Origin: a virus
Lineage: Duplodnaviria; Caudoviricetes
DNA: 64,000 nucleotides
IMG/VR virus record: IMGVR_UViG_3300021400_001287
Span: 27,209 to 91,208 of that record
Direction: 5' to 3' (one strand)
Numbering within the stretch: position 1 is the stretch's first letter; each line of letters begins with the position of its first letter. Shown here piece by piece: positions 20,301-59,949 of this stretch. Under the pieces are notes generated by a model. It made no database searches and was not told where the DNA came from. It worked only from the letters and a program-made list of their open reading frames with translations. A program made the translations under genes and the position numbers.

Positions 20301-21759
20301 CAATACGCTCTGGGCACGGCAACCTGACTTTTGCCCGATTACAGAATTTGAGCCCCGTATTAAGACGACAATGCCCCTCTAAATTTACCCTACCAAGTAG
20401 TCGTCCGAGCGGAGAAAACGCAAGCACGGTATTGACAATCATTAAATAGCAATAAAGGATGTGAATGGGTTTGATAAAGCTCGATAACGAGTATTTTGTG
20501 ACAGCGGATACGCGGTCGTTTGTGCTGAATCGGAAGTACAAACCCGAAGCCCCGAAGAAGAGCGACCTGAAGCCGAGAGAGACAACTGAATCCGTTGTCG
20601 GGTATTACAGCAACATCGCCCATTTACTTAACGCGTACCGCAAAGAGCAGATGCTCAAGTGGGTCGCTGGTGAGAAACTGACGCTGGAGCAACTGTGTGA
20701 CAGGATCAACGAGATGGACGCGACGCTCACCAAGAAGCTGGCGAAGTTGCAACAGATGGATCTTGGCGACGATGCGAAACCGAGGAGGCGGGGTAAGAAT
20801 GAGAATGCGGAACAGACGGCCTCGTGATGCTTAGTAGCTTTGCGAAGGCAGGTATAACAATAACAATACAACAAACTGGAGGACAAGATTATGATCCATG
20901 TGAAGAAGACCGAAAACGGCGTGATGGGATTTGGTTCGATCGAAACCAAGGAAGACGTTGAGAAGCTGATCAAGAACCTGGTCGAGATTCTGAGTTGTGC
21001 TGAAGAAGAGCCGGAACCCGAAGTCGAACCTGCTCCCAACGATGATCTGTTCGATGCGCTGGTAGATGCGCTCGGCTGGGGCGAAGACGAAGAATGCGAC
21101 TACGATGAGTGCGAGTGCGAGTGTGAAGACGAAGACGCGGACGAAGACGAGCGCGATGGTCTGCCTCACGTCGTGTCTGTCGGCTACACGCATGACTCCG
21201 ACGAAGTGGTGATCATGAACGACCGCGACACCAAGTGGGGTCTTGCGGAAGCGTTTCTGCGTGCTGCCGCGAAAGTGTGGCCTATTGAAGATGGGGAAGA
21301 CGAGAGACTGAAGGGCGCGTTGCTGGAACTGGCGGGTGTTGCCCATGAGCATGTGGACCCCGACGACTGAATTCGACACGGCAACTGAGCCGTTTGTGTT
21401 GCTTGTAGACTGGGGCGGTAGTCTGCGTCTGGTGGAGCGGAAAGCTATTAAGAATGCGACGAAAGCTGGACCGTACTTCATCGGCGTGGACACGCCGCCC
21501 ATCAAACAAGAAATTGTACTGGAGGACAAGAGTCATGACCGAACTTGTACAACAGATCGAGAACCAGTGGATGACCTACAATGCAGCGATAATCAACCAT
21601 TTGCATCCGGACAAGGAGAAGCAGAGGCTGGCGAACATCATGATCAATAATATGACTGATATCCTTGCCGCACTTCGGGCGTACGAACCCGCGACCGACG
21701 TGATCATCACTGGAGATAAAGACGAGCCGCCCCGCAAGACCAGGAAGAAGGCCGACTGA
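14387..21759 (+). other. Cluster of about 25 short rightward middle genes, many with CxxC zinc ribbons
   Basis: ATGA/TGATG-coupled ORFs such as 16104-16379, 16593-16919, 17443-17646, 18909-19283 and 19276-19542; those checked end in TAA/TGA. Confidence 0.8.
15656..16102 (+). CDS. HAD-superfamily phosphatase (Swiss-army-knife RNA-repair-like HAD domain)
   Basis: 'IIFLDVDGVLN', 'VVITSTWR', 'RGDEI', 'YVILDDDSDM'. Confidence 0.85.
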   Translation: MKIIFLDVDGVLNNLLWARRMFDEGVNVFAKDMLEYRAIELLKRIIDATGADVVITSTWRMRAVQMTHLLDQLARFDIYPIAVTPRLNTDRGDEISAWMQHYDVESYVILDDDSDMDEHMDHLVQTSFEHGLQREHVERAIEILNGVN

Positions 21760-22187
21760 TGGCGAGCGTAAAGTTTGAATTGCGGAACGAGGGCAAAGGA
21801 TTGCATGAGTGGGATTACGTCCCGCTTTCTGAACCGAGGATCGTGAAGATGTAGATTGAAAATCGCTCTAAGCTCGACCGCACGTACACAATGAAGCTGT
21901 ATGACAGCAGTCCATTGGTCTCTCAAGGTGTAGCTCCGATGTCCGAGCCGGTTACGGTCACATACTTGGACTTGGATCGTCTCATCAGCAAATGCGAGCT
22001 GACGAAACTGGAGCAGCTCGTCCTGGACTTGTTGATGCGCGGATACACGCGGAGTGATATCCGGGACGACACGAACTTGACAATGGAGACAATTGTTTCA
22101 TTGTTGACCTCGGCAGTTGAGAAAATCGTGGAAATGAACGAGTACGAATGGCACAGAAGTCATAGACAGATACGTCGTGACACATAA
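21759..22187 (+). CDS. Sigma-region-4-like HTH protein, putative late regulator; in-frame TAG at 21852
   Basis: ATG overlaps the upstream TGA; 'IVKM*IENRSKLD' continues in frame into ORF 21891-22187, which ends 'LTKLEQLVLDLLMRGYTRSDI...AVEKI'. Confidence 0.65.
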
Positions 22188-22228
22188 ACCTCGTTGTCGT
22201 TTAATATATATAGGATGAGGGGATTTAG

Positions 22229-22942
22229 ATGGCAAGCACATTGCGCATCGTTGATCTGAATGGAAAAGTCATCAACGTGGTCAAGGGACAAGACCAAACA
22301 TGGCGCGAAGTCGTGTCGAGAGCAAACCTGCCGGCGCGTTTTGAGTTTTGCCTCCGCCATTGGATGAGCGATGATCCCATCGACACGGCGACAGAGGAAC
22401 ACATCAAACAATACCTCGATCGTGTCGGGTATCTGCTCATTCAAGACAAGCCAGATTCGACCATTTTGACAGATTACAAAGAGTTGCGCGATAAAGTGGC
22501 GCTGATCCCTGTGTCTGGGTTGCCCCAGCTAGAGAATTTGTTTTACGGCAGCCTGGACGAAATGACAGATAGCAATGTCGTGCCGGGCAGAGAGTCGTCC
22601 GAGCGGATGACCAAAGTCGAAGCAAAAGTGTATGGCGCGTTGATGCGACCGAAGAAGATCCCGAAGACGATCACGAAGCTGCAAGAGAAGCGCAAGCGAA
22701 TTGATCAAATGCGGGCAACTTATCCTGGCGTCGTGACGGAGTTCATTCGTGTCGACACAAATAATGAGTTTGAGTATCATGGTGTGCGGTATAAGGTTTC
22801 TTGGAAGCAATATGAGCCGAAGGTAGTATGCGGCGATCTGCTGTATGACATGGATCACATCGTGTGCATTATGGCAGATGACGGTGCGCATTTTTACGAC
22901 GAAGATTTCGTCGAGGTAACGGATCACGTCTGTGTGGCGTGA
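22229..22942 (+). CDS. Hypothetical protein immediately upstream of the suppressor tRNA
   Basis: 237-aa ORF with an RBS and no internal TAG. Confidence 0.75.
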   Translation: MASTLRIVDLNGKVINVVKGQDQTWREVVSRANLPARFEFCLRHWMSDDPIDTATEEHIKQYLDRVGYLLIQDKPDSTILTDYKELRDKVALIPVSGLPQLENLFYGSLDEMTDSNVVPGRESSERMTKVEAKVYGALMRPKKIPKTITKLQEKRKRIDQMRATYPGVVTEFIRVDTNNEFEYHGVRYKVSWKQYEPKVVCGDLLYDMDHIVCIMADDGAHFYDEDFVEVTDHVCVA

Positions 22943-22948
22943 CCCCAA

Positions 22949-23028
22949 CGGGGCGTAGTAGAATTGGCATATACGGGGGACTCTAAATCTCCGCCGTTTT
23001 ATGGGTTCGAATCCCATCGCCCCGACCA
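22949..23028 (+). tRNA. Amber suppressor tRNA (anticodon CUA) with a tRNA-Leu-type body
   Basis: Acceptor CGGGGCG/CGCCCCG + A73 + CCA; D arm GTAG-AATTGGCAT-ATAC; anticodon arm GGGGA-CT CTA AA-TCTCC (CTA at 22983-22985); 8-nt variable region; T arm ATGGG-TTCGAAT-CCCAT. Confidence 0.95.
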
Positions 23029-23047: not shown

Positions 23048-24184
23048 ATGGACAGGAATGCGGTATTGGCTATTTTGAATAAAGTGACTGGCGCTTCGGA
23101 TTAGGACTGGAGCGAGATCGCGGAGCTCTATCATCTCGACATGCACCCGGATACCCTGCGTAAAGCTGGTGCCGGTGTGAAGATGGTGGCTGATGCTGGA
23201 CTATTGGCTGTACCGAACACGGAAAATAAATACCGTGACGAATACATCGCGAAGAAGCAATTCTTCGACCAGCGTCGTGAGTACAACGCGGTCTTGGCCC
23301 GAGAAGCACGGGGAGATCATCTGCTGGAGTGTCTGCGTGAGTCGGCTGAGAAGCTGAATGAGCAGATGCCTTTGCTCAATAAAGGTGGAGCATCGACACA
23401 GACTTCGACGACGGAGGCTGTGTTGGTGTTGACCGACTGGCATTACGGTATGGTTGCCAACAACGTATGGAACAAATATGACACGAACATCTGCAAAGAG
23501 CGACTGGAAGAGCTTCGACAAAAGGTTGCCTATAAGCTGGCTCTCCATGATGTGACAATACTCCATGTGTTGGTGTTGGGTGACATGGCGAACGGTGCTA
23601 TCCATGTGACGAGTCGTGTCGCGGCTGAAGAGCACGTGGTAGATCAGCTGATGCAGGTCAGCGAACTTATCGCTGAGTTCGTGGATGACTTGGCCAATCG
23701 AGTACAATACACTCAAATCTATTGCACCTACGGCAATCACATGCGGACGGTCCCGAACAAGAAGGACTCTATCCACGCGGACAATATGGAACGGATTATT
23801 CCGTGGTGGCTGGCACAGCGCTTTAAGACGCGTGACGACGTCGTGGTAGCTGAGACCGGAAAAGACGAGATGCTCCGGGCTGTGGTGTGCGGCGCTGAAG
23901 TTTGCGCGGTGCATGGCGATCTGGATGGTGGCAAAGACGCGGCGCTGGCTCTGAGCCAGATGTACGAGCGGGCTTTCGGTCGGAAGATGCAGTATCTCTT
24001 CACCGGTCACTATCATTCAATGCTCGATACGGAGAACTACGGCATCACGTCGATCCGGGCGGGCGGGATGTGTGGCGTCGATGAGTACGCGAAGAACGCG
24101 CGATTGTTTTCGACACCGTCTCAGACATTGGCAATATTTGATCGTGGCGAGCTGGACGCACTGTATCATATCCGGTTGAGGTGA
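23048..24184 (+). CDS. Metallophosphoesterase/exonuclease (calcineurin-like); TAG at 23102
   Basis: Motifs DWHYG, LGD, GNH, HGD and GHYH; N-terminus MDRNAV...SD*DWSEI is in frame. Confidence 0.85.
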
Positions 24185-24188: not shown

Positions 24189-25052
24189 ATGGCAAAGAAA
24201 AGTCCTGAAAAGATGTGTCTGCGTTGCCATGAGATCAAGCCGTAGGATGAGTTCTATCACAACCGCGGTTGGGCGGAACAGCAGTACGCTGATACGGTGT
24301 GTCGCGAGTGCGCCAGATCATTGGTGCATTGCAAAGACGACGCTCGTAAATATTGCTGGGATAACAATCGCGTCTGGAATGACAAGATATGGGACGCCGC
24401 CCATAACAAAGCGATGTACATGCTGGCGAACAACAAAGAGTACCTCAGCAAAAATACATCGAAAAAGAGAAAAGACGAAATTGAGCTGGCTTATACGTCA
24501 ACTCAATTTTTTGCTGTCATGAACACCGCGCCGCTGTATCGGTTTGTGGAGAACCGAGACGATGAGTACGATCCGGACTCTGTAGCCGGTACGACCCAGG
24601 AACTCGGCACCACACGGGATGACGACGAACTGGTCTGGAGCGACGAGTGGAATGGCATGTACAAGAAGCGGGAGCTTCGGTATCTGGATGATTATTTCCA
24701 ACGGTTGCAAGATGAATTCGTCATCGACAACGTAAACCGTGAGGACTACGCCCGACGGGTGGCGAAGGCGTCACTGGAAGCCGATAATAAATACCAGAAG
24801 ATGCGGCAGGGCACTGGCACAGCGAAAGAGTGGCAGGAAGCTCAGAGCATGTTTGACATGCTGAGCAAGTCAGCGTCGTTTGCTGAGAGCCAGAGAAAAG
24901 AAGTCGCCAACACGTCGACGAACGCGTTGTCCACTATCATCATGGACATCGAACTCAACCACCACAATGAGATGCCCAAGGTGACATTTGAGAAAGACGA
25001 CATCGATCTCATACTCAGAGACTTTGGCTTTACCGGGGAGGCTATCGCGTAA
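24189..25052 (+). CDS. Zinc-finger protein, probable terminase small subunit; TAG at 24243
   Basis: 'CLRCHEIKP*DEFY...CREC': the two CxxC halves join only by readthrough; directly upstream of terL. Confidence 0.7.
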
Positions 25053-26707
25053 TGCCCCGTATCGATCAAGTTAAAGATATCAAGAATTACGCGCAGTGGT
25101 GGACTCAGATATAGTTCTGGCGGACGCACCTGGACGTGTTTATTCAGCAATACTTCAGTGTGAAGCTGAAAGACACGCAGCAAGTCATCGCGAGAGCGGT
25201 CGGTCTGGCGAGTAACAGTCGGATCGTGAAAAGCCGCGGATATGGCAAAACATGGCTGATCGCCTGGTGCGCTGTGGCGATTGCAATCTTGTATCCCGGC
25301 ACCTCGATCGGTGTCGTGTCGGCCACTGCCGCTCAAGCGACACTGGTCTTGAAAAAGATCAAGAAGTTCACGCGGCAATATTCAATCCTGGCCGGCGAGA
25401 TGGTGTCGACCGGCAAAGACTTCGTTCGTATCTCGAAGGATAAAGGTTACTGTGAGTTTTTGAACGGCTCGTCCATCGAGTCGTTTTCGATCAACCAGGT
25501 TGTTGGTGAGCGTACCAAGGTGCTGATCATTGACGAAGCGCCCAGAGCTAACGAACAGGATATCAAGAAGAACGCCGAGCCGACGCTGAACACAACGCGT
25601 GACTGTTGTATCCAAGGTGGTTACGATGACTTCAGCTCGAAGATCATCTATATTACCTCCGCCTGTTTGAAGAGTAACTTCTTCTACAGGGACTTCGTGA
25701 AAGCCTATGAAGCGATGCGGAGTGGCGACCCGACATCATTTGCGTGTGTGTTGAATTATCAGAGCGCCGTGCGATGCGGGTTGACGAAAGCCAGTTATTT
25801 TGAAGGTCGGAAGAAAGCGTTGCCGGAGAGCGTATTTGCCACGGAATATGGCAGTTACTTCCTCGGCGCTGAAGCCGGTACGCTGTTCCCGTTCGACTTG
25901 ACGGACACCGTGCGGACACTTCGCCGCGTTGAAGCGAAACAGCCGAAGAACAGCAAATGCTGGTACATCATATCTATTGACTTGGCCAGTTCCGATGCGA
26001 AGGGCGCGGACAACGCTGTGCTGGTGGTCATCAAGTGCGTGGACAAAGAAGACGGCACCGTGATGAAGAACGTGGTGTACATCCGATCGTATCACGGCTG
26101 GCGACTGAACGCGTTGGCAAATGAAGTGCGCAAAGTCTATGTTGCGTTCCCCGGAACAGTGCGTATTATCTACGACGCGAAGGGATTGGGCTTTTCGTTT
26201 GCACAATTCTTCTCCGAGCCGTGGATCGACGACGCAACCGGTAAAGAGTATGAGCCGTGGACAGACGAGCATACCGCGATCCCCGGCGCGAATCCAATAT
26301 TGTTTGCCTTCAAAGCGACGCCGGTGTTGAATGTGCAACTGGTATCTACGTTGCGCGTGGCGTTGGAGCAAAAAACAGTGGCGTTCCCGGTGCCAAGCAC
26401 GGATATCGACGACGTGATGGTGTCGGAGGAAGATGACGACGAAGGCGAGAAGATCGTCCGGCTGTCGATGGAGGAGAGTGCCATTTATCTGGAGGCCGAC
26501 GCTTTGCAAGTGGAGCTTGGATCCATCGTATCAAAGAGTACGATGGCCGGCAACGTCGTTTACGATACCGAAAAGAAAAATCAACACAAAGACAGATACT
26601 CGGCGCTGGCGATGGGCGTATGGTACATCAGCCAGGTCGAGGACGATAATAAACGCCGGTTGCGGAACCGGGGCAATGCTTGCATTGGCATTGTTGACAG
26701 CTTTTGA
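25052..26707 (+). CDS. terL: Terminase large subunit; TAG at 25112
   Basis: Walker A 'SRGYGKT', Walker B 'LIIDEA', nuclease 'SIDLA' and 'HKDRYSALAM'; ATG overlaps the upstream TAA. Confidence 0.93.
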
Positions 26708-26721
26708 TGGGAGGAAAAAGT

Positions 26722-28302
26722 ATGGCGGCATTTTGGAGACGGGGGAATAAGACGCAGCCCGTTGAGCCCCCGAAAGTCCGTCCCGCCGTATGCGTGAGCG
26801 GCGAGGAAGCCAAGGTTGATGTTGGGCTGACTTATGACAACTCCAATATCACGATGGCAGCTTGGATGCCCGGAGTGGACTACCGCGCCATTCTGATGGA
26901 CAAGCAAGCGCACATCTATGACCTGTACGCCTAGGCGGACTACTTCGTCGACGCGGATCCCATTTTTCGTGGCATCATCAAAGGTGTTTACACGCCGTTC
27001 AGTGTTTCTGAATGGCGGTTGGAGGGCACCAATGACCGGGTCAAGGAAAAATACGAAGACTATTATCTGCGCATTCACTTGCGGGATAAGATGTGGTCGA
27101 TCTTTTATCAGTACTTCAAGTATGGGCAAGTGTTCGTTTACTTGAAGGATGATGGAGATATTATTACATTGCCGCCTCATCGGTGTCGTATTGCGAACGT
27201 GATGGTGGCTGGCGAACCCATTGTGGAGTTCAATGCGTTGCAGGTGGCCATTGACCTTGGCTATCGCAAATACGATTCGCTCCAAAAATGGTTAGAGGAC
27301 GACAAATTCGAGGTGAGGATGAGAGGCTATCCCCCCGAAGTAACGACCGCCCTGAAAGATGGCAAAGAGTGGGTTCAGCTGAACCCGATGAGGACGTTCG
27401 TTTTGCAGGACATCAAAGAAGACTGGTTGCGATATGCTATACCATTGATCGCGGCGGCACTGCTTGCGCTTCAGAAAAAAGCCATGATCTCGAATTACGA
27501 GAACTCGACTTTGAATATGATGGTGCATAGCTTCCTCCACGTCCAGTACGGTGACGCGACCAAGAACGCTGATTTCCTGCCGAACCAAAACGAGCTTCAA
27601 GCTCTGAACACTCTGTTCAAAGCGGCCATGTCGAAGAATGGCACTGGCATCGCGACCACGAACGTGTTTGCGAAAGCACAGTTCATTCAGCCGGACATCA
27701 ACGACCTGTTCGACAACGACCTGTACTCCAATGTCAACAACGAGATTCTCTCGGCTGGCGGCATCAGCGGTATCATCGTGAACGGGTTGGCAGAAGACGG
27801 ATCGAGCTTCGCCAGCGCTCAAGTCTCCATGCAGACGGCGGCGTTGCGCATCAAACAAGCGCGGGACAACTTCTGTGAATTAATGAACAAGATCAACGTG
27901 CGTCTCAACGGCGGCATCCTGCCTCGGAGCAAAGACGAGAACGTGCCTACGTTCAAGTTCCCGCCGGTTGATCTGACGGGGAGCGGTAAGTTCTATGAGA
28001 CTTGCCTCAACCTGTGGAAATAGGGCGTGCTGAGTACCCGGACCATGATGGACGCTCATGGGTTCGACATGGAGCAGGAATTCAGACGGCGCACCGATGA
28101 AGACGATAGCGGCGTTACGAAAACCATGTCGCCACGTCAAGAGACGCAAAACGAGGAGAGCGACACAAACCAAAGCACCGACACCGACGTCAGCAAAAAG
28201 GTCGGTCGACCGACACTTACCAATGACGAACGGCAAAGCGATCCGGCTGATGCTTTGACTGGACGGCAACCGAAACCGAGCTCTCCGGATGGATCACTTT
28301 AA
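26722..28302 (+). CDS. Portal protein; TAGs at 26932 and 28021
   Basis: Three same-frame ORF fragments separated only by TAG; ~526 aa, located after terL; GGAGG RBS. Confidence 0.85.
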
Positions 28303-28353
28303 TCACACTGTCGGCTCCTCCTAGCCGACGGAATGATAAATGAGGTGGCAAAC

Positions 28354-29664
28354 ATGCAGAAATTTGTTATGGCCGCTTCGGACATTTCTCTGGATTATCC
28401 GCAGAGTAATGAAATTTACTTTTCTGTAACAATGCGGATGCTGACAACGGAAACCAACTAGAATGGCGTCCGTCTGACCGCTGGTTTTATCGACGATATT
28501 GCAACGCATGCGGAAGAATATGTATGTATGCCGCTGTGTGCCGACGTGGATCGGCTGGCTCGCGGCTTGGACATCGGCCTCACTCACATGTATGATGAGC
28601 AACGGCAGGTGTTCGAAGCGCCGCAGGTCGGCAGTTTTTTTGAGGTGCATAGAGAAGACGACGAGCACGGAGTTAGCTTGGTCGGCACGGCTAGAATTAA
28701 CAAGCGCAATGCCAATGTGACTGATAAGATCATCGAGATGTTCAACACCAACCGGCTCAAGTTCAGCTTTGAAATTTGGGCGAGTGAGGTGTACGAAGAG
28801 GACGGAGTGACGGTGGTTGACGCCGCGCCGGGTAACCGGTTGACGGCGATGGCTATCGTTACCACGCCGGCTCTCCCCGCTGCTGTGGCTCTGAACCTGG
28901 CGGCGGAGGTGGATATTGACGCGTTCCGTGGCAAAGTCTATGACTTGCTGTGGACGAAGTATCCGAGCGAGTGCTGGAACGTTGTCTGGATGGGTTTGGA
29001 TTACGCCGTTATTTACTTTTCTGAGCACGGCAATATGGTACGCATTGCGTATCGTATGGATGGTGACAAACTCGTCGAGACGGAGGAATACGAAGTTGGC
29101 TTCGCACGAATTGACGAGGTGAGTGACAACATGAATATTACGCTGGCAACCGCCGAGGTGACCAACGTGGAGACCCCCGATGTGAACGAGGTGTCCGCTG
29201 TTGCCGATGCGGTTATCAATACTGACACAGTGGAGACTCCCGCTGTGGAAACCGAGACTGCTGCTTGCGGCGATCCCGAAAACGCGGCTTGCGATGACAA
29301 GACGGCGGAGGTCGAAAACGACATCGATGACGACATCAAAGACGAGTCGGACGACGATGCCCATGACCTGGAAGAGATGCGTCGAGAGCTGGAGCGCGTG
29401 AACGCTGAACTGGCTCGATACAAGGCGGCTGAAGAAGCTGCGAAGATGGCGGAGAAGCGTGCCGCCGCAAAAAAGTACGCGGAGCGTGAACACCTGAATC
29501 TGGAAGCGGAAGACGTTAAAGCGGCGATCGATAACGCCGACTATGAAGCGCTTGCTGCTGCCGTGATGGCGAAGCCCGCGGACGACAAGAATGAAGAAGC
29601 CTACCGTGTTACCGCGGAGATCAAGCTGTCTCCCTATGGCAACATGTTCGAGAAGGCGAACTGA
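28354..29664 (+). CDS. Prohead protease/scaffold; TAG at 28459
   Basis: 'N*NGV', 'FSFEI', acidic coiled-coil C-terminus; GAGGTG RBS. Confidence 0.8.
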
Positions 29665-30131: not shown

Positions 30132-31127
30132 ATGGAAACCATCACCAAGGACATGAATATTGTTAAGGCGTAGGCTGCTGACGCCCGCCACGAGTCTCTT
30201 GACTCTAACGTCCGCGAGAACATGAACAAGGTCGTTCATGAGCTGGCAGCGGATCGTAACCCCATGAACCTGTATCAGATCGGTCAGCTGATGGCCTTCA
30301 CTGTTGAAGAGCTGGAGCGCCCCATGACCAACTGGCTGGATCTCGTTGCCGATCATAAGCGCATTGGCGCTGGCGACGAAGCCGCTTTCCGCACCACCGC
30401 GAACGGCATCCGCGCCGTCATCCAGGCCAAGGCTGGCACCACTCCCCGCAGCCGCGTTGCCGACAAGCAGATTGTCGTTGACACCGTTGCCGTGTCTGTG
30501 CGTCCCGCTGTGAACCTGCTTGAGCTGGCCTCCGGTAAGATCAACTTCGGTGACCTGGCCATGTATGCCGCTGTCGAGCTGGCCAACAAGAAGACTCAGT
30601 ATGTGCAGCAGGTGCTCGACGCCGCCGCGACTTCCTTCGCCTCTCCTTTCTACGGCTCTGGCGCTGGTATCGTTGCCGCGACCTTTGATCCCATGGTGCA
30701 GCACTGGATGCGCACCGGTGGCGCTGCGATTATCGGTGACATCGCTGCCGCACAGAAGCTGGCTCCTCTGACTGGCTTCACCGCCTCCACCAACTCTCAG
30801 TGGGGCAATGGCATTATCGAGGAGTTCAATCGCACTGGCCGCATTGGCACCTACAAGGGCGCCCAGGTTGTGCAGACTGTGAACCCCTATCTGCCTGACG
30901 ACGTGACCCCTGTGCTGAATATCAGCAAGCTGTATATCGTGCCCACCACGATGAACACTGATGCCCGCAGCCTGAAGGTCGTCGAGCAGGGTGGCGTGAT
31001 CTCCGTGGAGAACACTTCCATCAACGAGCTGACCTACGAGGTCCGCATGGACGAGCACTTTGGTGCCGCCGTCGTGTACGGTGTGCAGCCCACTGTGTCC
31101 GTGTACTACGACTCTACTCTGGGTTAA
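30132..31127 (+). CDS. Major capsid protein; TAG at 30171
   Basis: RBS AAGGAG; METITKDMNIVKA*AADARHE is in frame with the 301-aa ORF; highly biased codons; followed by hairpins (~31138-31198). Confidence 0.88.
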
Positions 31128-31656: not shown

Positions 31657-31673
31657 AAGTGGGGTGCAGGGCG

Positions 31674-32111: not shown

Positions 32112-32121
32112 GGTGAGCGGG

Positions 32122-32379
32122 ATGATTGTGAAAGAAACACTTGCGACACGAAGCGGAGGCAAACAAGTCGTCATGACGCCGTTCAACGACTATTGCGATC
32201 ATCTGAGGGTGGACGTATTCAAAGCGCTTGGCGACGTCGAAGCAATGTGCGAGATGATGACTGGACAGTGTCGATGCGATTGGACAGAAAATGAAGTCGA
32301 AGCGTATAGCAAAGTGCGGTCGCGGCTTTTGAACCTGGCTGGCGCTGTGGCGCGTTAGCCCCAGAACTAGGAGGGGTGA
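32122..32379 (+). CDS. Small hypothetical protein; TAGs at 32356 and 32368
   Basis: Readthrough gives 'AVAR*PQN*EG' ending in TGA just before the next ATG. Confidence 0.6.
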
Positions 32380-32381
32380 CG

Positions 32382-49099: not shown

Positions 49100-49112
49100 A
49101 GGAGGGCTCGAT

Positions 49113-49286
49113 ATGCCGTATGTAAAGACAATTTGGGCAACGGGCGACTTGATCACGGCCGAAGGCATGAACAACGTGGAAGACGGTGTGGCTGATGCCG
49201 TAGAAAGCGCAGAGACCGCGCTGGACCGCGTGGAGAATATACAGATGACCATTAACGCCGATATGGAACTGGTGGTGACAATCTGA
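49113..49286 (+). CDS. Small tail protein
   Basis: 'MPYVKTIWATGDLITAEGMNNVEDGV'; GGAGG RBS. Confidence 0.7.
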   Translation: MPYVKTIWATGDLITAEGMNNVEDGVADAVESAETALDRVENIQMTINADMELVVTI

Positions 49287-51508: not shown

Positions 51509-51522
51509 GAGGGTGAATTGAG

Positions 51523-52077
51523 TTGCGAGAAGTAGCTTTCTACGGAAGACGGGCTATTCCAAACGTCTTTCAAATTGGCGTTGAAATGGACAACGGGGTC
51601 GAACAGATCCAGTTCGTTTTGCCGGCTATTATTCCGAATCAAGTTGCCACATTGTATTTGCAAAATGGCGACTATGCCGATGCCGTCATTCTGACGAACG
51701 GACTTTGGGAAGTGACGCACACAACGACTCAGCATGGCGGCGCATACGACTGTTATGTAACGCTGACGGACGGAGACACTTTGCTCTGGCATAGCGAAGA
51801 CTTCACGGCGACGGTGTACGACTTGCCAAATGTTGAAGGGCAAATTGAGCAAGAGTATCCGACCGCTGTCCAGCAAGCGATGAATGCCGCCGCGCAAGCT
51901 ATTGTTGCGAATGACAATGTGCAAGTCGCGAAGACAGAGACGCTGGCTGCAAGAGATGACGCGGTGACTGCTGCGAATGAAGCGAAGGAGATGCAAGAGC
52001 AGATCACACAGATCGAGTTTGCTATCACTAATGACATGGACCTGACCGTTAATGTTGGATGGGAGGTAAGCCCGTAA
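51523..52077 (+). CDS. BppU-like upper baseplate protein
   Basis: 'IGVEMDNGVEQIQFVLP...LWEVT...LWHSEDF'. Confidence 0.55.
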   Translation: MREVAFYGRRAIPNVFQIGVEMDNGVEQIQFVLPAIIPNQVATLYLQNGDYADAVILTNGLWEVTHTTTQHGGAYDCYVTLTDGDTLLWHSEDFTATVYDLPNVEGQIEQEYPTAVQQAMNAAAQAIVANDNVQVAKTETLAARDDAVTAANEAKEMQEQITQIEFAITNDMDLTVNVGWEVSP

Positions 52078-52316
52078 TGGAAAAGAGAGATATTCCGACC
52101 GGACGCTTTATGACACAGACTTTGGATGAGATCGACTATGTCCAGGATGGTGTCGTGTATCATGGTGTCTACACAAGCAATGTTTAGGTTGGCGACGCGA
52201 ATGAGCTGGAGCTGCTGACCGGATATGTACCGGGGACAATTGCACACACCGCGGGATGGAAGAAGATGTGGGAACTCGACACCGACGGGGAGACATGGGT
52301 CCCCATTTAGGAGTGA
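52077..52316 (+). CDS. Small tail-associated protein; TAGs at 52185 and 52308
   Basis: Absent from the ORF track; 'SNV*VGD...PGTIAHTAGWKKMWELDTDG..WVPI*E'. Confidence 0.7.
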
Positions 52317-52322
52317 TGACGA

Positions 52323-52478
52323 ATGACCGCAGAAACGATTTACGCGATGCTGGCAGGGAAACTAACTCCTATGCTGAAAGATCTGACGACTGAAGCGTTA
52401 CAGCAAGACTTGGCCGATGTCGTGTCCGGTATCACGTTTACGATCAATAACGATATGGAACTGGAGGTCGAAATATAA
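52323..52478 (+). CDS. 51-aa tail-associated protein
   Basis: Coupled by TAATG to the next gene; ends ITFTINNDMELEVEI. Confidence 0.65.
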   Translation: MTAETIYAMLAGKLTPMLKDLTTEALQQDLADVVSGITFTINNDMELEVEI

Positions 52479-54559
52479 TGGCGACTGTGAATTTGGGACG
52501 AGTCGGTTTTGTGCCGAAGGGAGAATACGTTGCGGCGACAGCGTATGAAAAGTATGACATTGTGAGCTACAATGGCAGCAATTACGTGGCGTAGGTCGCG
52601 GTGACCGGCGTGACGCCGGGAACGGATGCCACCAAGTGGAAGCTCTTCATTGATAATTCGGCTGCTGCGGCGGCGACGACCGCCGCGAACACTGCTGCGA
52701 ATGCGGCTAATACGGCGGCTACCAATGCAACGAATGCGACCGGGTATATTGCCGATCCGTATGACGCTACGAAGACCTACGCCGTTGGCGACTACGTTAT
52801 CTACAATGGCAAACTGTATCGGTGCAATACTACCATTTCTACGGCTGAAGCGTGGACGGCGATGCACTGGACGGAGACGCAGGTGGGGGATGACGTTGGA
52901 GAGTTAAAGAGCGCTTTTTTAAATAAAGAACCTATTAACTGGTTTGATAAAACGACAGCAATTAATGGTAAAAATTTTAATTATTACGGTGATTTAAGTA
53001 CAAATGGTATAATGTTTGCCGCATATGTTCCAGTTTCAGCCGGCAAATATACTTTTCAAGTGTCGTACATAGATTTAGGCGGAAACGCAACAAGAATCCA
53101 CTTGTATGATGCGAACAAAGGATATCTATCTTCGGTTAATGGAACAGTGATAGGAGGATCGACTAATTACCCCATTATTACAATCGAAATCGCTAATGAA
53201 AGTGCAAAATTTATAGGAATAAGTTATCGCCTGAATGAAATAAATAATTTTATGGTTGTCAAAGGCGAAACGTATCCTGAAATATATTCCGAATATTTTG
53301 ATCCATTTTCGGAACTACACAATGTTACTGTGCGCCCGGAGGATGTTATCGGTTTAACTGATACATGTAAAATTGTAAACAATTTGCATGAAACTGTAAA
53401 TGATATTCTTGTATCATATTTGAACATTTTTAATCGAGCAAATATAAACACTCCCGGTTATTTGAATGGTGGAAACATTGTTGGCACATCAGGTGTTACA
53501 TATGATTACATTGAAATAACTCACTATGGTGAATATATTTCTAATTGCGTTGCAAAAACATTATATGGAAATGCGTATAATAACTGCGTTGCATTTTATA
53601 ATGCTGAAAAAACATATCTTCGTAATGCGGCAATAACAATAATCTCAGATAATGGGAATAATTCTGTCGGTACATTTAAAATTGAAAATGATGTAAAATA
53701 TATAAGAGTTACCATTTATTCTACAAACGTTGCTAATACGGCAATGATTGTATTTGGTACAACATTGCCTGATTACTATATTGATAATGGAGAAACAAAC
53801 GTTTCTACTGTTGACTTCATCGAATCAATTAAAGGGAATGTTCTTTTTGGCAAAACCGCTATTTTTGATGGTGATTCCATATGTGCGAGCAGTACGGACG
53901 TTAGTGGCAATGGAGCTTATGCGGGTAGAATTTCAGTTGCAAACGCCATGATTATCCATAACTATGCTGTTGGCGGTGGAACAATCACCAGTGAAACCTA
54001 TTCCGGATCTACTCCTAAACATTGGATAGTTGATAGCATTGATAGTGTATATAATGCTCACCCGGATGCTGATTATATTATACTTGAGGGTGGAACGAAT
54101 GATGCCGATGTTATCGGAAGCATCATTAATGGGAATACACCTGAACGGTTTGGCAGTTATAGCATGACCGATTTTTCTGGTGATTATGATGACGAAACGT
54201 TCTGCGGTGCAGTTGAATTGCTGATTTACAAGGCAATCAATTATTGGCCATCTAAGAAAATCGGTTTTGTTATTGCCATGAAAATGGGAAAAACGAGCAA
54301 CGGATATACGCCGGAAACTAACAACCGGAGGGCGTACTTTGAAACCATCATGGATATCTGCGATAAATGGGGTATCCCGTACCTGAATCTCTGGGATAAC
54401 TGTTACATGAATCCGAGCCTTGATGTGTGCTATGACAGCACGATGAGACCTCAAGAGAACGTTGCAGCTAATAAAATGTATCAAGATGGTCAGCATCCTG
54501 CCCCGAGGGGCTATGACTATATCGCACCGATAATCGGTGAGTGGATGAAAACGCTGTAA
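52478..54559 (+). CDS. Receptor-binding/tail fibre protein with a C-terminal SGNH hydrolase; TAG at 52592
   Basis: N-terminal 'NLGRV...YDIVSYNGSNYVA*' and CBM5/12-like 'YAVGDYVIYNGKLYRC'; SGNH blocks GDSI, GG, GGTND and DGQHP. Confidence 0.85.
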
Positions 54560-54755: not shown

Positions 54756-55742
54756 ATGAGTATTGCGGCGAAGAGCACATTCATCAAGAACCTCTCCCAG
54801 AAGTTGGGCGACACGTTGACTGTCAATGAAATGTCCGCGTTGACTTCTGCATTGGCAGAAGAACTCAGTCAATTCGAGATGGAGCATAATTGCAATGACA
54901 AGCCGGACGTTGAAACTGGTGAATTGCTGGACGAGTTTCTGGCAGCGAAAGAAGTTGAAGGTAAGTCGCCGAAAACAATTGCTCACTACAAGTACATTCT
55001 GACCCGTATGTTCAAAGATATCGACCTTCCGATCCGCGATATCATGATATTCAGTCTGCGTCGATATCTTGCAAAACTCAAACAGCAAGGTATGCAGGAT
55101 GTCACAGTCGAAGGGATCCGTTCTATTATCTGCTCGTTCTTTGGGTGGGTGCATCGCGAGAATCTGATCGACATTAACCCTGCTGGGAATCTTGGGCCTA
55201 TCCGTTGCGAGAAAAAAGTTAAGAAGCCCCTGAGTAGTGTCGACATCGAGACGCTGAAAGAAAACTGTACGACAATTCGCGATAGAGCAATAGTGAGTTT
55301 GCTCCTGTCGACTGGATGCCGCATCAGTGAGATATGCGGGCTCAATCGGGACAGCATTGACTTCGCCAATTTGGAATGTGTCGTACTTGGGAAGGGAAAC
55401 AAGCAACGCACTGTGTTCATTGACGAAGTGACGGCGATGTTGGTGAAGCGATATTTGTTCTCGAGAGAAGATCAGTATGAAGCGCTATTCGTTGGCAAAG
55501 GTAGTAGCCGGCTCACTCCGGGCGGCATCCGGTTGATGCTCAACAAAGTAGCCAATGTTGCCGGTGTAGATCATGTTCATCCGCATCGCTTCCGGAGGAC
55601 ATTGGCAACGAATTTGGTCGACCACGGCATGCCGATCCAGGAAGTGGCAAACATTTTAGGGCACGACAAATTGGAGACGACCATGAAATATGTGTACGTG
55701 AACAAGACGAATGTTAAGAACGATTATCGAAAATATGCATAG
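54756..55742 (+). CDS. Tyrosine recombinase (XerD-like) next to the tail fibre
   Basis: 'TGCRISE', 'GKGNKQR', 'HPHRFRRT', 'LGH', 'TMKY'; ends at a TAG, with a TAA six codons later. Confidence 0.92.
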   Translation: MSIAAKSTFIKNLSQKLGDTLTVNEMSALTSALAEELSQFEMEHNCNDKPDVETGELLDEFLAAKEVEGKSPKTIAHYKYILTRMFKDIDLPIRDIMIFSLRRYLAKLKQQGMQDVTVEGIRSIICSFFGWVHRENLIDINPAGNLGPIRCEKKVKKPLSSVDIETLKENCTTIRDRAIVSLLLSTGCRISEICGLNRDSIDFANLECVVLGKGNKQRTVFIDEVTAMLVKRYLFSREDQYEALFVGKGSSRLTPGGIRLMLNKVANVAGVDHVHPHRFRRTLATNLVDHGMPIQEVANILGHDKLETTMKYVYVNKTNVKNDYRKYA

Positions 55743-55749
55743 GAGGATA

Positions 55750-56769
55750 ATGATGGATAAGATATTTACCTCCATTGACTATTGCGTCTGGCTGGAAGAC
55801 CAAGTTGCGGCCAAACGGCCGTATTGGTATGGTACGACTTTTCAGCCGTGTACGCAAGCGTAGTTGGACCGTAAGGCCAGACAGTATCCAGACCATTATA
55901 CCGCTAACAGAATGTATCGTTACGAAGCTGATATTCGGAACGAACAAATTTGCGGCGACTGTGTGGGCGGTGCTATCAAAGGTGCCGCGTGGACTGACCT
56001 AGGGCAGCACAAAGTCGTCTACGCGTCGAATGGTGTGCCAGATCGAAGTGCTGATGGTATGTTCAAGTATTGCAAATCCATTGGGGCTGAGTACGGCAAC
56101 ATTTCGACTATACCGGATCGACCAGGCATTGCTGTCAGAATGGCCGGGCACGTAGGTGTCTATGTTGGCAATGGCTACGTGGTTGAATGGCGGGGCTTTA
56201 AGTACGGTTGCGTAAAAACATAGCTCGAAGGTCGCGGGTGGACAGACTGGTATGAGTTGCCATGGGTCAATTATGGCGAAGCAGAGATCGAGCCCAACAA
56301 CGATGTGAAAGCAATTCTTGGCCGTCGACTACTGAAGGTGGGGCGCAAAGGTGACGATGTTGCTCTGCTTCAAGAGCTGCTCAATGAGCAAGGATTCGAT
56401 GCTGGTATCGTCGATGGGGAGTACGGTAAAAATACTCGCGACGCGGTGAGACGTCTCCAAGAAGCCGCTGGTATTGACGTAGATGGGCAATTCGGCGAAG
56501 AGAGCTTGAAGGCGCTGATGTCGTTGCTGGCAGAAAAGAATGTGGAAGACAATGTGACAACGGACGAAGAGAAACGGGTCGTCATCGTAACGGCGAGCCA
56601 TGCTGCGAATATCCGTGCCGGTGCGGGGACGAATTACCCCATTCTGACTGTGGCAAAATGTGGAACAAAGTTGCCATACGTTGCTGTAGCGGACAACGGC
56701 TGGTTTGCTGTTCAACTTGACGGGCAAATCGGCTGGATCAGCAATAAAATGGCGGAGCTGGGGGAATGA
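55750..56769 (+). CDS. Endolysin (NlpC/P60-like catalytic domain, PG-binding domain, SH3b); TAGs at 55861 and 56221
   Basis: 'PYWYG...DCVG...GHVGVYVGNG', 'GDDVALLQELL...DGEYGKNT', 'NIRAGAGTNY...GWIS'. Confidence 0.9.
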
Positions 56770-56772: not shown

Positions 56773-57084
56773 ATGACGTAGTATCAATGGCTGTGTTTAT
56801 TCGGGATCCCAACGTTGCTGACCGCGTAGGTCAGCTACTTGATCAAACGCGTAAGAGATACAGCCAAAGAGACGAACGCAATTGCTGCTGGCGTTCAAGC
56901 ATTGCTACGGGCTCAGTTGCGAAAAGAATATGAAAGATGCTATAAGCAAGGATACGCGACGCTGAATGATCGTGACGACTTTGAAAACTGTTGGACGCAG
57001 TACCATGCGCTTGGCGCAAATGGTGTCATGGACGATGTTCGCAAAAAGTTTTTTGACTTACCGATAGGGGGCGAAGAACAATGA
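56773..57084 (+). CDS. Lysis-cassette membrane protein; TAGs at 56779 and 56827
   Basis: MT*YQWLCLFGIPTLLTA*VSYLIKR...GVQALLR...YHALGANGVMD. Confidence 0.8.
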
Positions 57085-57335
57085 TCAATTGGAAAGTACG
57101 TTTGCGGAATAAGCAGTTCTGGGTTTCTCTGATCCCAGCCATGCTGTTGCTCATCCAGTCGGTGGCATGGTTGTTTGGATATCAGCTGGATCTTGGTGAG
57201 CTGGGTAACCGACTGTAGACCGTCGTAGATGCTTTGTTCGCTGTGCTGGTGATCCTCGGCATTGTGGTCGACCCAACGACCGAAGGTGTGGGCGACTCTC
57301 AGAGAGCGCTGACCTACGAAAACCCGTCAAGATAA
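57081..57335 (+). CDS. Holin, phiLC3 family; TAG at 57216
   Basis: Absent from the ORF track; MINWKVRLRNKQFW...LGNRL*TVVDALFAVLVILGIVVDPTTEGVGDS. Confidence 0.92.
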
Positions 57336-58893: not shown

Positions 58894-58909
58894 GTTAGCG
58901 CCGTTTTCG

Positions 58910-59536
58910 TCAAGTATCTATACATTTCGCATATTGCTTCATCTCCTGAGTCAATGCTTTTTCTATCGGCCATTTCAGTATGTAGATTCTTTTCTTTAAC
59001 GCTCTTTGAGGTATACCGGTAATGGCCGACCATTCTCGTAGCGTATGTGTTTCACCGTTGTACTCATATCTTGGCGTATTGGTTTGGTTGCTGTTTTGCT
59101 CAGAATACGTTGCCCATCTGCAATTCTCTGGGCAATAATTGCCGTTGACATCAACACGATCGATTGTCAAATTGTCACAATAGCCATGAGATAGAGCCCA
59201 TTGTTTGAATGATAGGTAGTCTGCCCATTCCTCGCAAACAGTAATGCCACGTCCACCGTAACGGCTATACGCATGATTGTTCGGTGAAGAACATCTGTTT
59301 TTCATATCAGCCCAGATTTGATAAAGCCGATGGTATTTGCCTTTCTTTGAATCACCGTGAGTGATAAAGCACCCGCACGAATGAGAGTGACCGTTCACCA
59401 AATTGTACACACGCACTTCTTTTGTCGTGCCACAATCGCACTGGCATATAGCATATTCACCACGACGGTTTTGTCTCTTAGGAGCAATATCCTATACTGT
59501 CCATTTAGAAAAGCGCTGTCCAATAATATCGCTCAT
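58910..59536 (-). CDS. HNH homing endonuclease; TAG at 59492-59494
   Basis: GAGGAGG RBS; MSDIIGQRFSKWTV*D...CQCDCG...SCGC...YGGRGITVCEEW...TIDRVDVNGNYCPENCRW. Confidence 0.88.
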
Positions 59537-59805
59537 CCAATCGCCTCCTCGATCATCTCTAGTTTCCTGCGTGACGAATGAATTGTGTCTTGCACTTATC
59601 GTCGCACATCGGTACAACAGTATCCTTCAAAACTATAGTTTCTCTTCGCCCCGCAAGGGGGCTTATTTTTTTACCCGTTCGGGGGCAATATCGCTTTTTC
59701 TTGATATATTATGCCAGATCGGGTATGATATATTCAACCGGCATCGCAACAGCCTTTGTCACCCGTCCTTGGCCCAACTCCAAATAAGTTCCGGGAGGTG
59801 ATATA

Positions 59806-59949
59806 ATGCTGCCGATGAATTTTCGTGTAGCGATATGGGGCATATAGCTTGGCTAGAACACATTGCCCACCGTGTTGCATCGCAAAGTTCGTGAGAACAG
59901 TCTCTGGCATGTTGCTACCAAAGTCTGTGAAACGTTACTGATGCTGTAA
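59806..59949 (+). CDS. 47-aa hydrophobic peptide (type I toxin-like); TAGs at 59845 and 59854
   Basis: GGAGGTG RBS 5 nt upstream; promoter TTGATA-17-TATGAT (59701-59729); MLPMNFRVAIWGI*LG*NTLPTVLHRK... Confidence 0.5.

What the first reader, a model, noticed from the sequence alone, without database searches (positions are those of the whole stretch)
21759..59949. Stop-codon reassignment TAG -> Leucine (not Gln) across the phage late genes
Seen: about 34 in-frame TAGs split otherwise intact terminase, portal, protease, capsid, tail, TMP, fibre, endolysin, holin and HNH genes, while TAA/TGA do not interrupt them. Positions: 21852, 23102, 24243, 25112, 26932, 28021, 28459, 30171, 31683, 32356, 32368, 32412, 32439, 32556, 34286, 34613, 36418, 36445, 44718, 45042, 46128, 48239, 49391, 52185, 52308, 52592, 55861, 56221, 56779, 56827, 57216, 59494(-), 59845, 59854. 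Inference from family patterns I recognise: the gaps sit where Leu is expected, e.g. zinc finger KP[L]DEFY, D[L]DWSEI, protease N[L]NG, capsid VKA[L]AA, portal LYA[L]ADY, HNH KWTV[L], NPTG[L]SYLLNFDY, SNYVA[L], holin GNRL[L]TVV, and a TM helix LLTA[L]VSYLI. Established: reported phage recodings are TAG->Gln (code 15) and TGA->Trp (code 4); TAG->Leu (codes 16/22) is known from algal mitochondria. I know of no characterised phage example, but cannot check the literature. A few sites (VKT*LEG, DTS*IDK) would fit Gln/Lys equally well.
Basis: partly seen in the sequence, partly recalled or inferred. Interest (0 to 1): 0.97.

Follow-up and report, generated by a model that had tools for sequence, protein, structure and literature searches.

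The report
Phage reads TAG stop as leucine
A complete 91-kb phage from ruminant gut bacteria writes about 32 TAG "stop" codons inside its virion and lysis genes and carries its own TAG-reading tRNA, and comparison with hundreds of relatives shows that TAG stands for leucine, not the glutamine that all published recoded phages and annotation pipelines assume.

Summary
Observation confirmed, interpretation supported. All 34 listed positions are TAG. 32 lie in credible genes; 59845 and 59854 lie in an unsupported 47-codon ORF.

The window is part of a circular 91.1-kb SPbeta-like phage genome from ruminant gut metagenomes. A tRNA with anticodon CUA sits at 22949-23028.

I fetched about 130 related loci and 390 homologous proteins and tallied what relatives have at the window's TAG columns.
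- Relatives show Leu 42%, Lys 9%, Ile 8%, Gln about 3%. This matches the window's own Leu codons and not its Gln codons.
- A Codetta-like log-odds over 24 sites gives Leu +18, Ile -17, Gln -46.
- Some columns are invariant Leu: portal 83/83, holin 102 L, 11 I, 6 V.
- Relatives carry 421 in-frame TAG against 7 TGA or TAA, mostly opposite the window's Leu.
- 37 of 40 recoded relatives score best as Leu. One, L088, scores Ser and has a Ser-like suppressor.

The suppressor tRNA has bacterial tRNA-Leu identity marks but a short variable loop. The phage has no release-factor or synthetase gene.

No paper found reports TAG to Leu in phages, and the public record translates TAG as Gln. This scan noted a Leu-type suppressor once before, on other DNA (e1-4048619). 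No protein-level evidence exists yet.

The parts
22949..23028 (+). Phage amber-suppressor tRNA. Anticodon CUA, encoded CCA end, A73, U8:A14, A15:U48, G18G19 and an 8-nt variable loop. It lies between the sigma-like gene block and the exonuclease-like gene.
   Evidence: ARAGORN. Rfam tRNA 50.3 bits. Sequence. Alignment with Leu and Gln tRNAs. Relatives L001 and L002 carry a tRNA-CUA at the same syntenic place.
21759..22187 (+). Sigma-factor-like late regulator. TAG at 21852 (codon 32).
   Evidence: PHROG sigma factor, E 1e-8. At the column relatives have L in 22 and TAG in 16.
23048..24184 (+). Exonuclease or metallophosphatase-like protein. TAG at 23102.
   Evidence: phrog_284 exonuclease, E 6e-58. 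Pfam Metallophos. Column K 18, L 17, R 5, M 5; the standard-code relative L003 has L.
24189..25052 (+). Cys-rich protein of phrog_3314 (unknown function) in the packaging-gene block. TAG at 24243.
   Evidence: Column L 70 of 78.
25052..26707 (+). Terminase large subunit. TAG at 25112 (codon 21).
   Evidence: Pfam Terminase_6N. 532 homologues. The closest full-length homologues have L at the column; distant ones have W, H, I or Q.
26704..28302 (+). Portal protein. TAG at 26932 and 28021.
   Evidence: PHROG portal. Column 26932: L 83 of 83, plus TAG in 5 relatives. Column 28021: K 36, A 14, E 12.
28333..29664 (+). TAG at 28459.
   Evidence: Column R 28, L 24; the close relatives L001-L003 all have L.
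30132..31127 (+). Major capsid protein (YonB-like). TAG at 30171 (codon 14).
   Evidence: The syntenic homologues in L001-L003 carry Pfam YonB. Column L 16, I 16, M 10.
31659..33122 (+). Three head-tail connector genes: 31659-32111, 32098-32379 and 32376-33122. TAGs at 31683, 32356, 32368, 32412, 32439 and 32556.
   Evidence: Columns: 31683 I/L/V; 32356 L 10 of 10; 32412 mixed; 32439 P/I/V; 32556 I/V. 32368 has no informative homologue.
34235..35074 (+). Tail tube protein (YomU-like). TAG at 34286 and 34613.
   Evidence: PHROG virion structural protein. YomU_Tube on relatives. Columns: 34286 D/E/W/I/V; 34613 variable. These two sites do not look Leu-like.
36400..42792 (+). Tape measure protein. 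TAG at 36418 and 36445 (codons 7 and 16).
   Evidence: PhageMin_Tail on the syntenic genes of L005-L007. Only L005 aligns here, and it has TAG at both sites.
43950..46604 (+). Tail endopeptidase-like protein (YOMG_N / Prophage_tail). TAG at 44718, 45042 and 46128.
   Evidence: Pfam. Columns: 44718 L 24 of 25; 45042 D/L/I mixed; 46128 Q 2, L 1, R 1. L005 has CAG at 46128.
46601..54559 (+). Distal tail and fibre genes: 46601-49099, 49286-51508, 52059-52316 and 52478-54559 (CBM5/12 + GDSL). TAGs at 48239, 49391, 52185, 52308 and 52592.
   Evidence: Pfam. Few homologues are available: 48239 Q (L005 only); 49391 L; 52185 L/M; 52592 K 2, D 1, L 1. 52308 is the penultimate codon of its ORF.
55711..56769 (+). 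Endolysin (PG_binding_1 + SH3_3). TAG at 55861 and 56221.
   Evidence: Pfam. Columns: 55861 L 8 of 8; 56221 K 4, R 2, Q 1, N 1.
56773..57084 (+). Small membrane protein upstream of the holin. TAG at 56779 and 56827.
   Evidence: 719 homologues. Columns: 56779 L 15, T 11, V 10, W 8, I 7; 56827 V 19, I 19, L 17, F 9.
57081..57335 (+). Holin (Phage_holin_1). TAG at 57216 (codon 46), in a transmembrane stretch.
   Evidence: Pfam E 3e-28. In 119 standard-code homologues the column is L 102, I 11, V 6. The public translation of this gene has Q there (P0241).
58910..59617 (-). HNH endonuclease. Minus-strand TAG, seen as CTA at 59492-59494.
   Evidence: PHROG HNH endonuclease, E 6e-70. The single aligned relative has L.

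Best explanation
The phage uses TAG as a leucine codon in its late genes. These are the sigma-like regulator and the packaging, head, tail and lysis genes, plus an HNH endonuclease.

The phage's own tRNA with anticodon CUA (22949-23028) is charged with leucine by the host leucyl-tRNA synthetase. That enzyme does not read the anticodon, so the tRNA can outcompete release factor 1 at UAG. This charging step is inferred, not shown.

The tRNA is a tRNA-Leu derivative with a shortened variable arm. It is a paralogue of the phage's own short tRNA(CAA); CAA to CUA is one base change.

Most TAGs lie in the first 50 codons of a gene. Without the suppressor these proteins are aborted early, so the tRNA acts as a translational gate on late and lysis functions. 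This is the gate proposed for code-15 phages, but with Leu.

Shown here: the TAGs are real, specific and conserved; the tRNA exists; and the residue expected at TAG columns is Leu. Inferred: charging by LeuRS, competition with RF1, and the gating role.
For: (1) Residues at TAG columns: L 42%, K 9%, I 8%, Q about 3% (n = 704). This is like the window's own Leu codons and unlike its Gln codons.

(2) Log-odds over 24 sites: L +18.1, I -16.8, V -23.0, Q -45.8. 17 sites favour L over Q, 5 favour Q and 2 tie. The control recovers the true residue in 199-200 of 200 resamplings per residue tested.

(3) Invariant or near-invariant Leu columns: 26932 (83/83), 21852 (22/22 plus 16 TAG), 24243 (70/78), 44718 (24/25), 32356 (10/10), 55861 (8/8) and holin 57216 (L 102, I 11, V 6).

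(4) Reciprocal test: the 421 in-frame TAGs of relatives align to the window's L 176, M 35, T 29, V 28, I 27 and Q 5. 37 of 40 recoded relatives score best as Leu.

(5) tRNA: A73, U8:A14, A15:U48, G18G19, and the D-arm AGAATTGGCATAT identical to the phage tRNA(CAA). It is unlike the phage tRNA-Gln, which has G73. Relatives L077-L080 carry class II tRNA-CUA closest to tRNA-Leu(UAG).

(6) Established knowledge of Leu identity. In E. coli it rests on A73, A15-U48, G18G19 and A20a, not on the anticodon or the long arm (PMC9976931). A bacterial LeuRS charges a type I tRNA-Leu(CAA) in Streptomyces coelicolor (PMC6614811).

(7) The genome has no release-factor or class I synthetase gene.

(8) 18 of 31 late-gene TAGs lie within the first 50 codons, against 13% of Leu codons (p = 6e-9).
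Against: Only 8 of the 21 tblastn-tallied columns have Leu as the plurality residue, against 63% of true Leu columns. Several columns are polar: 28021 K/A/E, 34286 D/E, 56221 K/R, 46128 Q/L/R.

The closest relative, L005, has CAG (Gln) at 46128 and 48239. That is what synonymous drift under TAG as Gln would give. It also fits a C-to-T transition at a tolerant site.

The tRNA lacks the long variable arm of bacterial tRNA-Leu, and plain sequence identity does not place it with any isotype.

No peptide, aminoacylation or host data exist. One early gene (2341-2763, minus strand) may still end at TAG, so the change may be conditional suppression and not full reassignment.
Confidence: 0.85

Rival explanations
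1. Ordinary code 15: TAG is read as glutamine, as in crAss-like, Lak, Garnet and Topaz phages and as the public annotation of this record assumes.
For: The public translation of the holin has Q at the TAG (P0241). L005 has CAG at two of the window's TAG sites. Five columns favour Q over L. All published cases are Gln.
Against: Log-odds Q is -45.8 against L +18.1. Q makes up about 3% of residues at TAG columns, against 40% at true Gln columns. Invariant Leu columns would become Gln, including one in a holin transmembrane stretch. The tRNA has A73 and a Leu-like D-arm, unlike the phage's own tRNA-Gln with G73.
Confidence: 0.03
2. TAG is read as another aliphatic residue (Ile, Val or Met), or ambiguously because more than one synthetase charges the suppressor. 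It therefore only looks Leu-like in alignments.
For: Several columns are I/V-rich (31683, 32439, 32556, 56827). Short suppressors of relatives resemble tRNA-Ile(GAU) in plain identity. Kienbeck et al. 2024 predicted an Ile isotype for 10% of phage suppressor tRNAs (PMC10879173). A third of the columns are polar.
Against: Ile trails Leu by 35 log units, Val by 41 and Met by 52. True Ile columns give I 50%, V 18%, L 12%, which is not what is seen. IleRS, ValRS and MetRS depend on their anticodons, which CUA does not provide (established tRNA identity rules; PMC9976931).
Confidence: 0.09
3. The TAGs are not translated. The genes are pseudogenes, or the TAGs are assembly or sequencing errors.
For: None beyond the fact that no protein data exist.
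Against: Only TAG interrupts genes (421 TAG against 7 other stops in relatives). Sites are shared by independent assemblies from other studies. Homology continues across every site. A cognate tRNA-CUA is present. An RNA-library contig carries TAG 34286 unchanged.
Confidence: 0.01

Closest known systems
Code-15 recoded gut phages (crAss-like, Lak, Garnet, Topaz and others; Borges et al. 2021/2022, Peters et al. 2022, Cook et al. 2024)
   Same: The host presumably uses the standard code. The phage encodes a tRNA-CUA. In-frame TAGs are concentrated in structural and lysis genes. A role in timing late gene expression has been proposed.
   Different: The amino acid is Leu, not Gln. TAG use is sparse (31 in 11,258 late codons) and strongly N-terminal. 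The phage is an SPbeta-like, integrase-bearing phage of ruminant-gut Clostridia.
NCBI genetic codes 16 and 22 (chlorophycean and Scenedesmus mitochondria, TAG to Leu)
   Same: The same codon takes the same amino acid.
   Different: Those are organelle genomes with a fixed, genome-wide code (from my own knowledge). Here a virus imposes the meaning on a standard-code cell with one tRNA, probably only late in infection.
Leucine-inserting amber suppressors of E. coli (supP/Su6, tRNA-Leu CAA to CUA), from classical genetics recalled from memory
   Same: The logic is the same one-base anticodon change on a tRNA-Leu body, and it works because LeuRS ignores the anticodon.
   Different: Those are laboratory mutants of a class II tRNA. 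This is a natural phage gene with a short variable loop, conserved across a phage clade.
Type I tRNA-Leu(CAA) of Streptomyces coelicolor (Fan et al. 2019, PMC6614811)
   Same: It is a bacterial-system tRNA-Leu without the long variable arm that LeuRS still leucylates.
   Different: It is a cellular tRNA that reads a normal Leu codon. Recognition there depends on a special LeuRS domain, and whether Clostridia LeuRS behaves alike is unknown.

Membership tests
Phage stop-codon recoding by a phage-encoded suppressor tRNA | In-frame stops of one kind only inside conserved genes, with homology continuing across them | tested here: met
   31 TAGs in 20 late genes. Relatives have 421 TAG against 6 TGA and 1 TAA. 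Alignments span the sites.
Phage stop-codon recoding by a phage-encoded suppressor tRNA | A phage tRNA with the matching anticodon | tested here: met
   tRNA-CUA at 22949-23028. Syntenic copies in L001 and L002. 21 distinct tRNA-CUA genes in the clade.
Phage stop-codon recoding by a phage-encoded suppressor tRNA | Recoded codons enriched in late, structural and lysis genes | tested here: met
   Within the window, credible internal TAGs lie at 21759-57335 and in the HNH gene. Early-region Xs are mostly start-extension artefacts. Early genes outside the window were not checked.
Genetic code 15 (TAG = Gln) | The residue at TAG is glutamine | tested here: not met
   Log-odds Q -45.8 against L +18.1. 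Q is about 3% of residues at TAG columns.
Genetic codes 16/22 (TAG = Leu) | The residue at TAG is leucine | tested here: met
   By comparative inference only. No peptide data.
Genetic codes 16/22 (TAG = Leu) | TAG is never used as a terminator in the genome | tested here: inconclusive
   All 119 read-through ORFs end in TGA (69) or TAA (50), but that follows from how they were built. Gene 2341-2763 (minus strand) has TAG two codons before TAA and may stop there.
Bacterial tRNA-Leu (LeuRS substrate) | Discriminator A73 | tested here: met
   A73 is present in all Leu-scoring suppressors. The Ser-scoring L088 has G73.
Bacterial tRNA-Leu (LeuRS substrate) | Hinge elements U8:A14, A15:U48, G18G19 and A20a | tested here: met
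   Read from the Rfam alignment and alignment A4. The list of elements comes from PMC9976931. The A20a numbering is my inference.
Bacterial tRNA-Leu (LeuRS substrate) | Long (class II) variable arm | tested here: not met
   The variable loop is 8 nt. The arm is not needed for charging in E. coli (PMC9976931), and type I tRNA-Leu exists in S. coelicolor (PMC6614811). L077-L080 suppressors keep a class II arm.
Bacterial tRNA-Leu (LeuRS substrate) | Aminoacylation with leucine | not testable with these tools
   Needs an in vitro charging assay or mass spectrometry of a reporter.
tRNA-Pyl (ARAGORN's label) | Atypical tRNA-Pyl fold (tiny D loop without G18G19, 3-nt variable loop) and pyl genes | tested here: not met
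   The tRNA has a canonical cloverleaf with G18G19, a TTCGAAT T-loop and an 8-nt variable loop. The fold criteria are from my own knowledge. ARAGORN names any CUA tRNA 'Pyl'. pylS was not searched.

The most novel reading that the evidence does not exclude
Amber recoding in phages is not tied to glutamine. A whole clade of SPbeta-like phages of ruminant-gut Clostridia reads TAG as leucine; at least 37 sampled relatives score that way. At least one lineage (L088) reads TAG as serine.

Each lineage uses a suppressor derived from a tRNA whose synthetase ignores the anticodon, and several of these tRNAs have since lost the class II variable arm. If this holds, current pipelines that assume code 15 mistranslate every such phage, and the amino acid chosen in a viral code change is set by synthetase recognition rules.
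Probability: 0.75. Interest if true: 0.85.

Novelty: new variant of a known kind. Interest (0 to 1): 0.8.

Why it matters
Every published phage stop-codon recoding that I could find is TAG to Gln or TGA to Trp. One paper notes, from tRNA prediction alone, Trp-, Ile- and Tyr-type suppressors. Gene callers offer only codes 4 and 15.

Annotation. A Leu meaning, and Ser in a sister lineage, changes how these genomes must be translated. The public record of this very phage puts Gln into a holin transmembrane stretch.

Evolution of the code. It shows that viral code changes follow the synthetases that ignore the anticodon.

Tools and open questions. It offers natural short tRNA-Leu(CUA) scaffolds of interest for suppressor engineering. 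It also makes the amber-gate idea for late genes testable in a phage whose sigma-like late regulator is itself gated.

Tried and rejected
- Greedy coding-density comparison under codes 11, TAG-sense, TGA-sense and TAA-sense did not discriminate at 50% GC.
- A single-protein scan of IMG/VR with the terminase found nothing. An alignment query was needed.
- Pfam gave no hit for many late proteins.
- Plain pairwise identity of the suppressor to about 130 phage tRNAs did not place it with any isotype. A D-loop motif count was only suggestive: Leu 7 of 10, suppressors 8 of 21.
- A promoter and terminator scan around the tRNA was not above chance.
- MFE folding of the tRNA alone did not give the cloverleaf. 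The Rfam alignment did.
- Laying contigs of other ruminant samples could not show base by base whether the TAGs are kept, because most differences were not listed.
- Pyrrolysine was rejected on tRNA shape.
- Pseudogenes and assembly error were rejected on TAG specificity and conservation.
- Seven literature searches found no phage TAG-to-Leu report. This is absence in the held library only.


Full report
**What the DNA is.** The window is bases 27209-91208 of a 91,208-bp record whose first 108 bases repeat at its end. It is therefore a complete, circularly closed genome of about 91.1 kb. The record is an IMG/VR virus entry with direct terminal repeats.
- Genes run on the minus strand up to about window 11.3 kb, on the plus strand to 57.3 kb, and on the minus strand again after that.
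- The plus-strand late block holds the following genes:
  - a sigma-factor-like gene;
  - an exonuclease-like gene;
  - terminase, portal and a YonB-like capsid;
  - a YomU-like tail tube, tape measure and a YOMG-like tail protein;
  - fibre genes;
  - an endolysin, a small membrane protein and a Phage_holin_1 holin.
- The YonB, YomU, YomW and YomX families were seen on the syntenic genes of relatives. This marks an SPbeta-like structural module.
- An integrase follows on the minus strand.
- Relatives occur in Clostridia MAGs (Christensenellales-like and Acutalibacteraceae). Near-identical DNA occurs in goat and bovine gut metagenomes from several studies.

**The observation.** Every listed coordinate is a TAG. 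'59494(-)' is the first base of a minus-strand TAG in the HNH endonuclease gene.
- With TAG read through, the late block gives 31 genes and 11,258 codons. They hold 31 in-frame TAGs in 20 genes, all ending in TAA or TGA.
- 59845 and 59854 lie in an unsupported 47-codon ORF, so I set them aside.
- The TAGs are specific and conserved. At the same columns relatives have 47 stops, all TAG. Over all aligned genes relatives have 421 in-frame TAG against 6 TGA and 1 TAA.
- Independent assemblies share many of the sites (L005 at 97% identity over the tail-protein fragment that found it, plus L001 and L002).
- Contigs from an RNA library of the source sample match late genes exactly, including TAG 34286. 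DNA carry-over in that library is not excluded.

**Which amino acid.** I gathered homologues from five sources:
- 532 terminase relatives;
- 141 tail-protein relatives;
- 2866 holin relatives;
- 719 relatives of the small membrane protein;
- about 130 genomic loci with 10-kb flanks.

Each TAG-bearing protein, with X at the TAG, was aligned by tblastn to all loci. The residue opposite each X was kept when at least 6 of the 20 flanking positions matched.
- The pooled spectrum is L 42%, K 9%, I 8%, W 6%, R 5%, Q about 3% (n = 704).
- In the same alignments, the window's own Leu codons give L 52%, I 9%, M 8%, V 8%. Its Gln codons give Q 40%, E 11%, K 8%.
- A Codetta-like score (sum over sites of the log of column frequency over background) for 24 sites gives L +18.1, I -16.8, V -23.0, M -33.8, K -40.9, Q -45.8.
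- Drawing 18 random sites of known residue recovered the right residue in 199-200 of 200 trials for each of L, Q, K, I, V, M, E and W.
- Several columns leave little room for doubt:
  - portal 26932 is L in 83 of 83 relatives and TAG in 5 more;
  - 21852 is L in 22 and TAG in 16;
  - 24243 is L in 70 of 78;
  - 44718 is L in 24 of 25;
  - 55861 is L in 8 of 8;
  - holin 57216 is L 102, I 11, V 6 in 119 standard-code homologues.
- The two TAGs in the small membrane protein fall in hydrophobic columns.

**Reciprocal test.** The relatives' own in-frame TAGs align to the window's L 176 times, then M 35, T 29, V 28, I 27 and Q 5.
- 48 of the first 103 loci have two or more in-frame TAGs.
- Of 40 loci with four or more, 37 score best as Leu. 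TAG to Leu is therefore a property of the clade, not of one genome.
- L088 scores Ser. Three of its four TAGs sit at near-invariant Ser columns, and it carries an 88-nt class II tRNA-CUA with G73 that is closest to tRNA-Ser.

**What does not fit neatly.** Only 8 of the 21 tblastn-tallied columns have Leu as the plurality residue, against 63% of true Leu columns.
- Some columns are polar: 28021 K/A/E, 34286 D/E, 56221 K/R, 46128 Q/L/R.
- The nearest relative, L005, has CAG at 46128 and 48239.
- The polar pluralities are often single-step neighbours of TAG (AAG, TGG, CAG). The TAGs also crowd into gene starts: 18 of 31 lie in the first 50 codons, against 13% of Leu codons (p = 6e-9).
- My reading is that TAGs are selected for position and arise wherever one mutation gives a tolerated Leu. 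Some arise synonymously from TTG at conserved Leu sites, others as missense changes at loose sites. This reading is an inference.

**The tRNA.** The gene at 22949-23028 scores 50 bits as a tRNA.
- It has anticodon CUA, an encoded CCA, C1-G72, A73, U8:A14, A15:U48, G18G19 and an 8-nt variable loop.
I found a tRNA cluster outside the window with short tRNA(CAA) (76 nt) and tRNA(UAA) (78 nt), plus tRNA-Gln(UUG).
- The suppressor shares the D-arm 13-mer AGAATTGGCATAT and A73 with the tRNA(CAA). It differs from the tRNA-Gln, which has G73 and another D loop.
- Class II tRNA-Leu genes of relatives have the same GGAAT(T)GGCAGA D loop. The suppressors of L077-L080 keep a class II arm and are closest to tRNA-Leu(UAG).
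- PMC6614811 shows that a bacterial LeuRS charges a type I tRNA-Leu(CAA).
- The genome has no release-factor or class I synthetase gene, so host LeuRS must do the charging. Charging itself is not shown.

**How it likely works.**
1. Early genes in the window are almost free of internal TAG.
2. Once the suppressor is made and leucylated, UAG in the late messages is read as Leu in competition with RF1.
3. Before that, ribosomes stop within the first few dozen codons of the sigma-like regulator and of most packaging, head, tail and lysis genes.
4. This is the late-gene gate proposed for code-15 phages, here with Leu.

**Literature.** The papers I could read report only TAG to Gln and TGA to Trp for phages:
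- Borges et al. preprint;
- Cook et al. 2024;
- Peters et al. 2022;
- an infant-gut phage study.

Kienbeck et al. 2024 predicted suppressor isotypes Gln, Trp, Ile and Tyr, and no Leu. Seven searches found no phage TAG-to-Leu report. The public translation of this phage's holin has Gln at the TAG (P0241), so the record was evidently called with code 15. This scan has one earlier follow-up, on other DNA, that also proposed a Leu-type suppressor in a prophage (e1-4048619). I did not test it.

**Verdict.** It is a new variant of a known kind, namely phage amber recoding with a different amino acid, across a clade and with a Ser-reading sister lineage. Direct protein or charging evidence is the missing piece.

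Noticed in passing
L088:7811-7898 and its aligned late genes: Relative L088 (about 44% terminase identity) has 4 in-frame TAGs. Three sit at near-invariant Ser columns (81/99, 75/75, 46/49). It also carries an 88-nt class II tRNA-CUA with G73 that is closest to tRNA-Ser(UGA). This looks like TAG read as Ser in the same phage clade.
   Followed up: partly
L085 (aligned late genes): L085 has 8 in-frame TAGs whose columns give no clear residue (Y, R, D, A, S, G). No suppressor tRNA lies in the 21.6 kb held.
   Followed up: no
window 57081-57335: The public protein for this holin (P0241) has Gln at the TAG. The record was evidently annotated with code 15, and all 119 homologues have L, I or V there.
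   Followed up: yes
window 21759-23028: The first TAG-bearing gene of the late block is sigma-factor-like (PHROG). It lies two genes upstream of the suppressor tRNA. Its TAG column is Leu in 22 relatives and TAG in 16. The late transcription regulator may itself be gated by the tRNA.
   Followed up: partly
window 21759-57335: 18 of 31 late-gene TAGs lie in the first 50 codons (median codon 43), against 13% of Leu codons (p = 6e-9). This fits selection for early termination when the suppressor is absent.
   Followed up: yes
L131 (genome 16000-18600, outside the window): A tRNA cluster holds class-I-like short tRNA(CAA) of 76 nt and tRNA(UAA) of 78 nt, plus tRNA-Met and tRNA-Gln. It also holds an odd 'tRNA-Tyr(AUA)' and a tRNA-like gene with a 4-base anticodon (caaa). 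Bacterial-type tRNA-Leu without the long arm is itself unusual.
   Followed up: partly
window 2341-2763 (-): This early gene has TAG two codons before a TAA. TAG may still act as its terminator, with a back-up stop behind it.
   Followed up: no
genome 378-24431 (outside the window): Seven larger early-arm ORFs have a TAG within their first 35 codons when read from the longest start. Whether these lie inside the true coding regions was not checked.
   Followed up: no
window 46128 and 48239 vs L005: The 97%-identical relative L005 has CAG where the window has TAG at these two sites, and shares TAG at 8 others.
   Followed up: partly
L003:7267-7857: The standard-code relative L003 has six ordinary tRNA genes (Met, Ser, Ser, Lys, Thr, Thr) at the syntenic place where recoded relatives carry the suppressor.
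   Followed up: no
window 60116-60192 (-): A tRNA-Thr(UGU) gene lies near the integrase (57733-58932, minus strand). It may relate to the attachment site.
   Followed up: no
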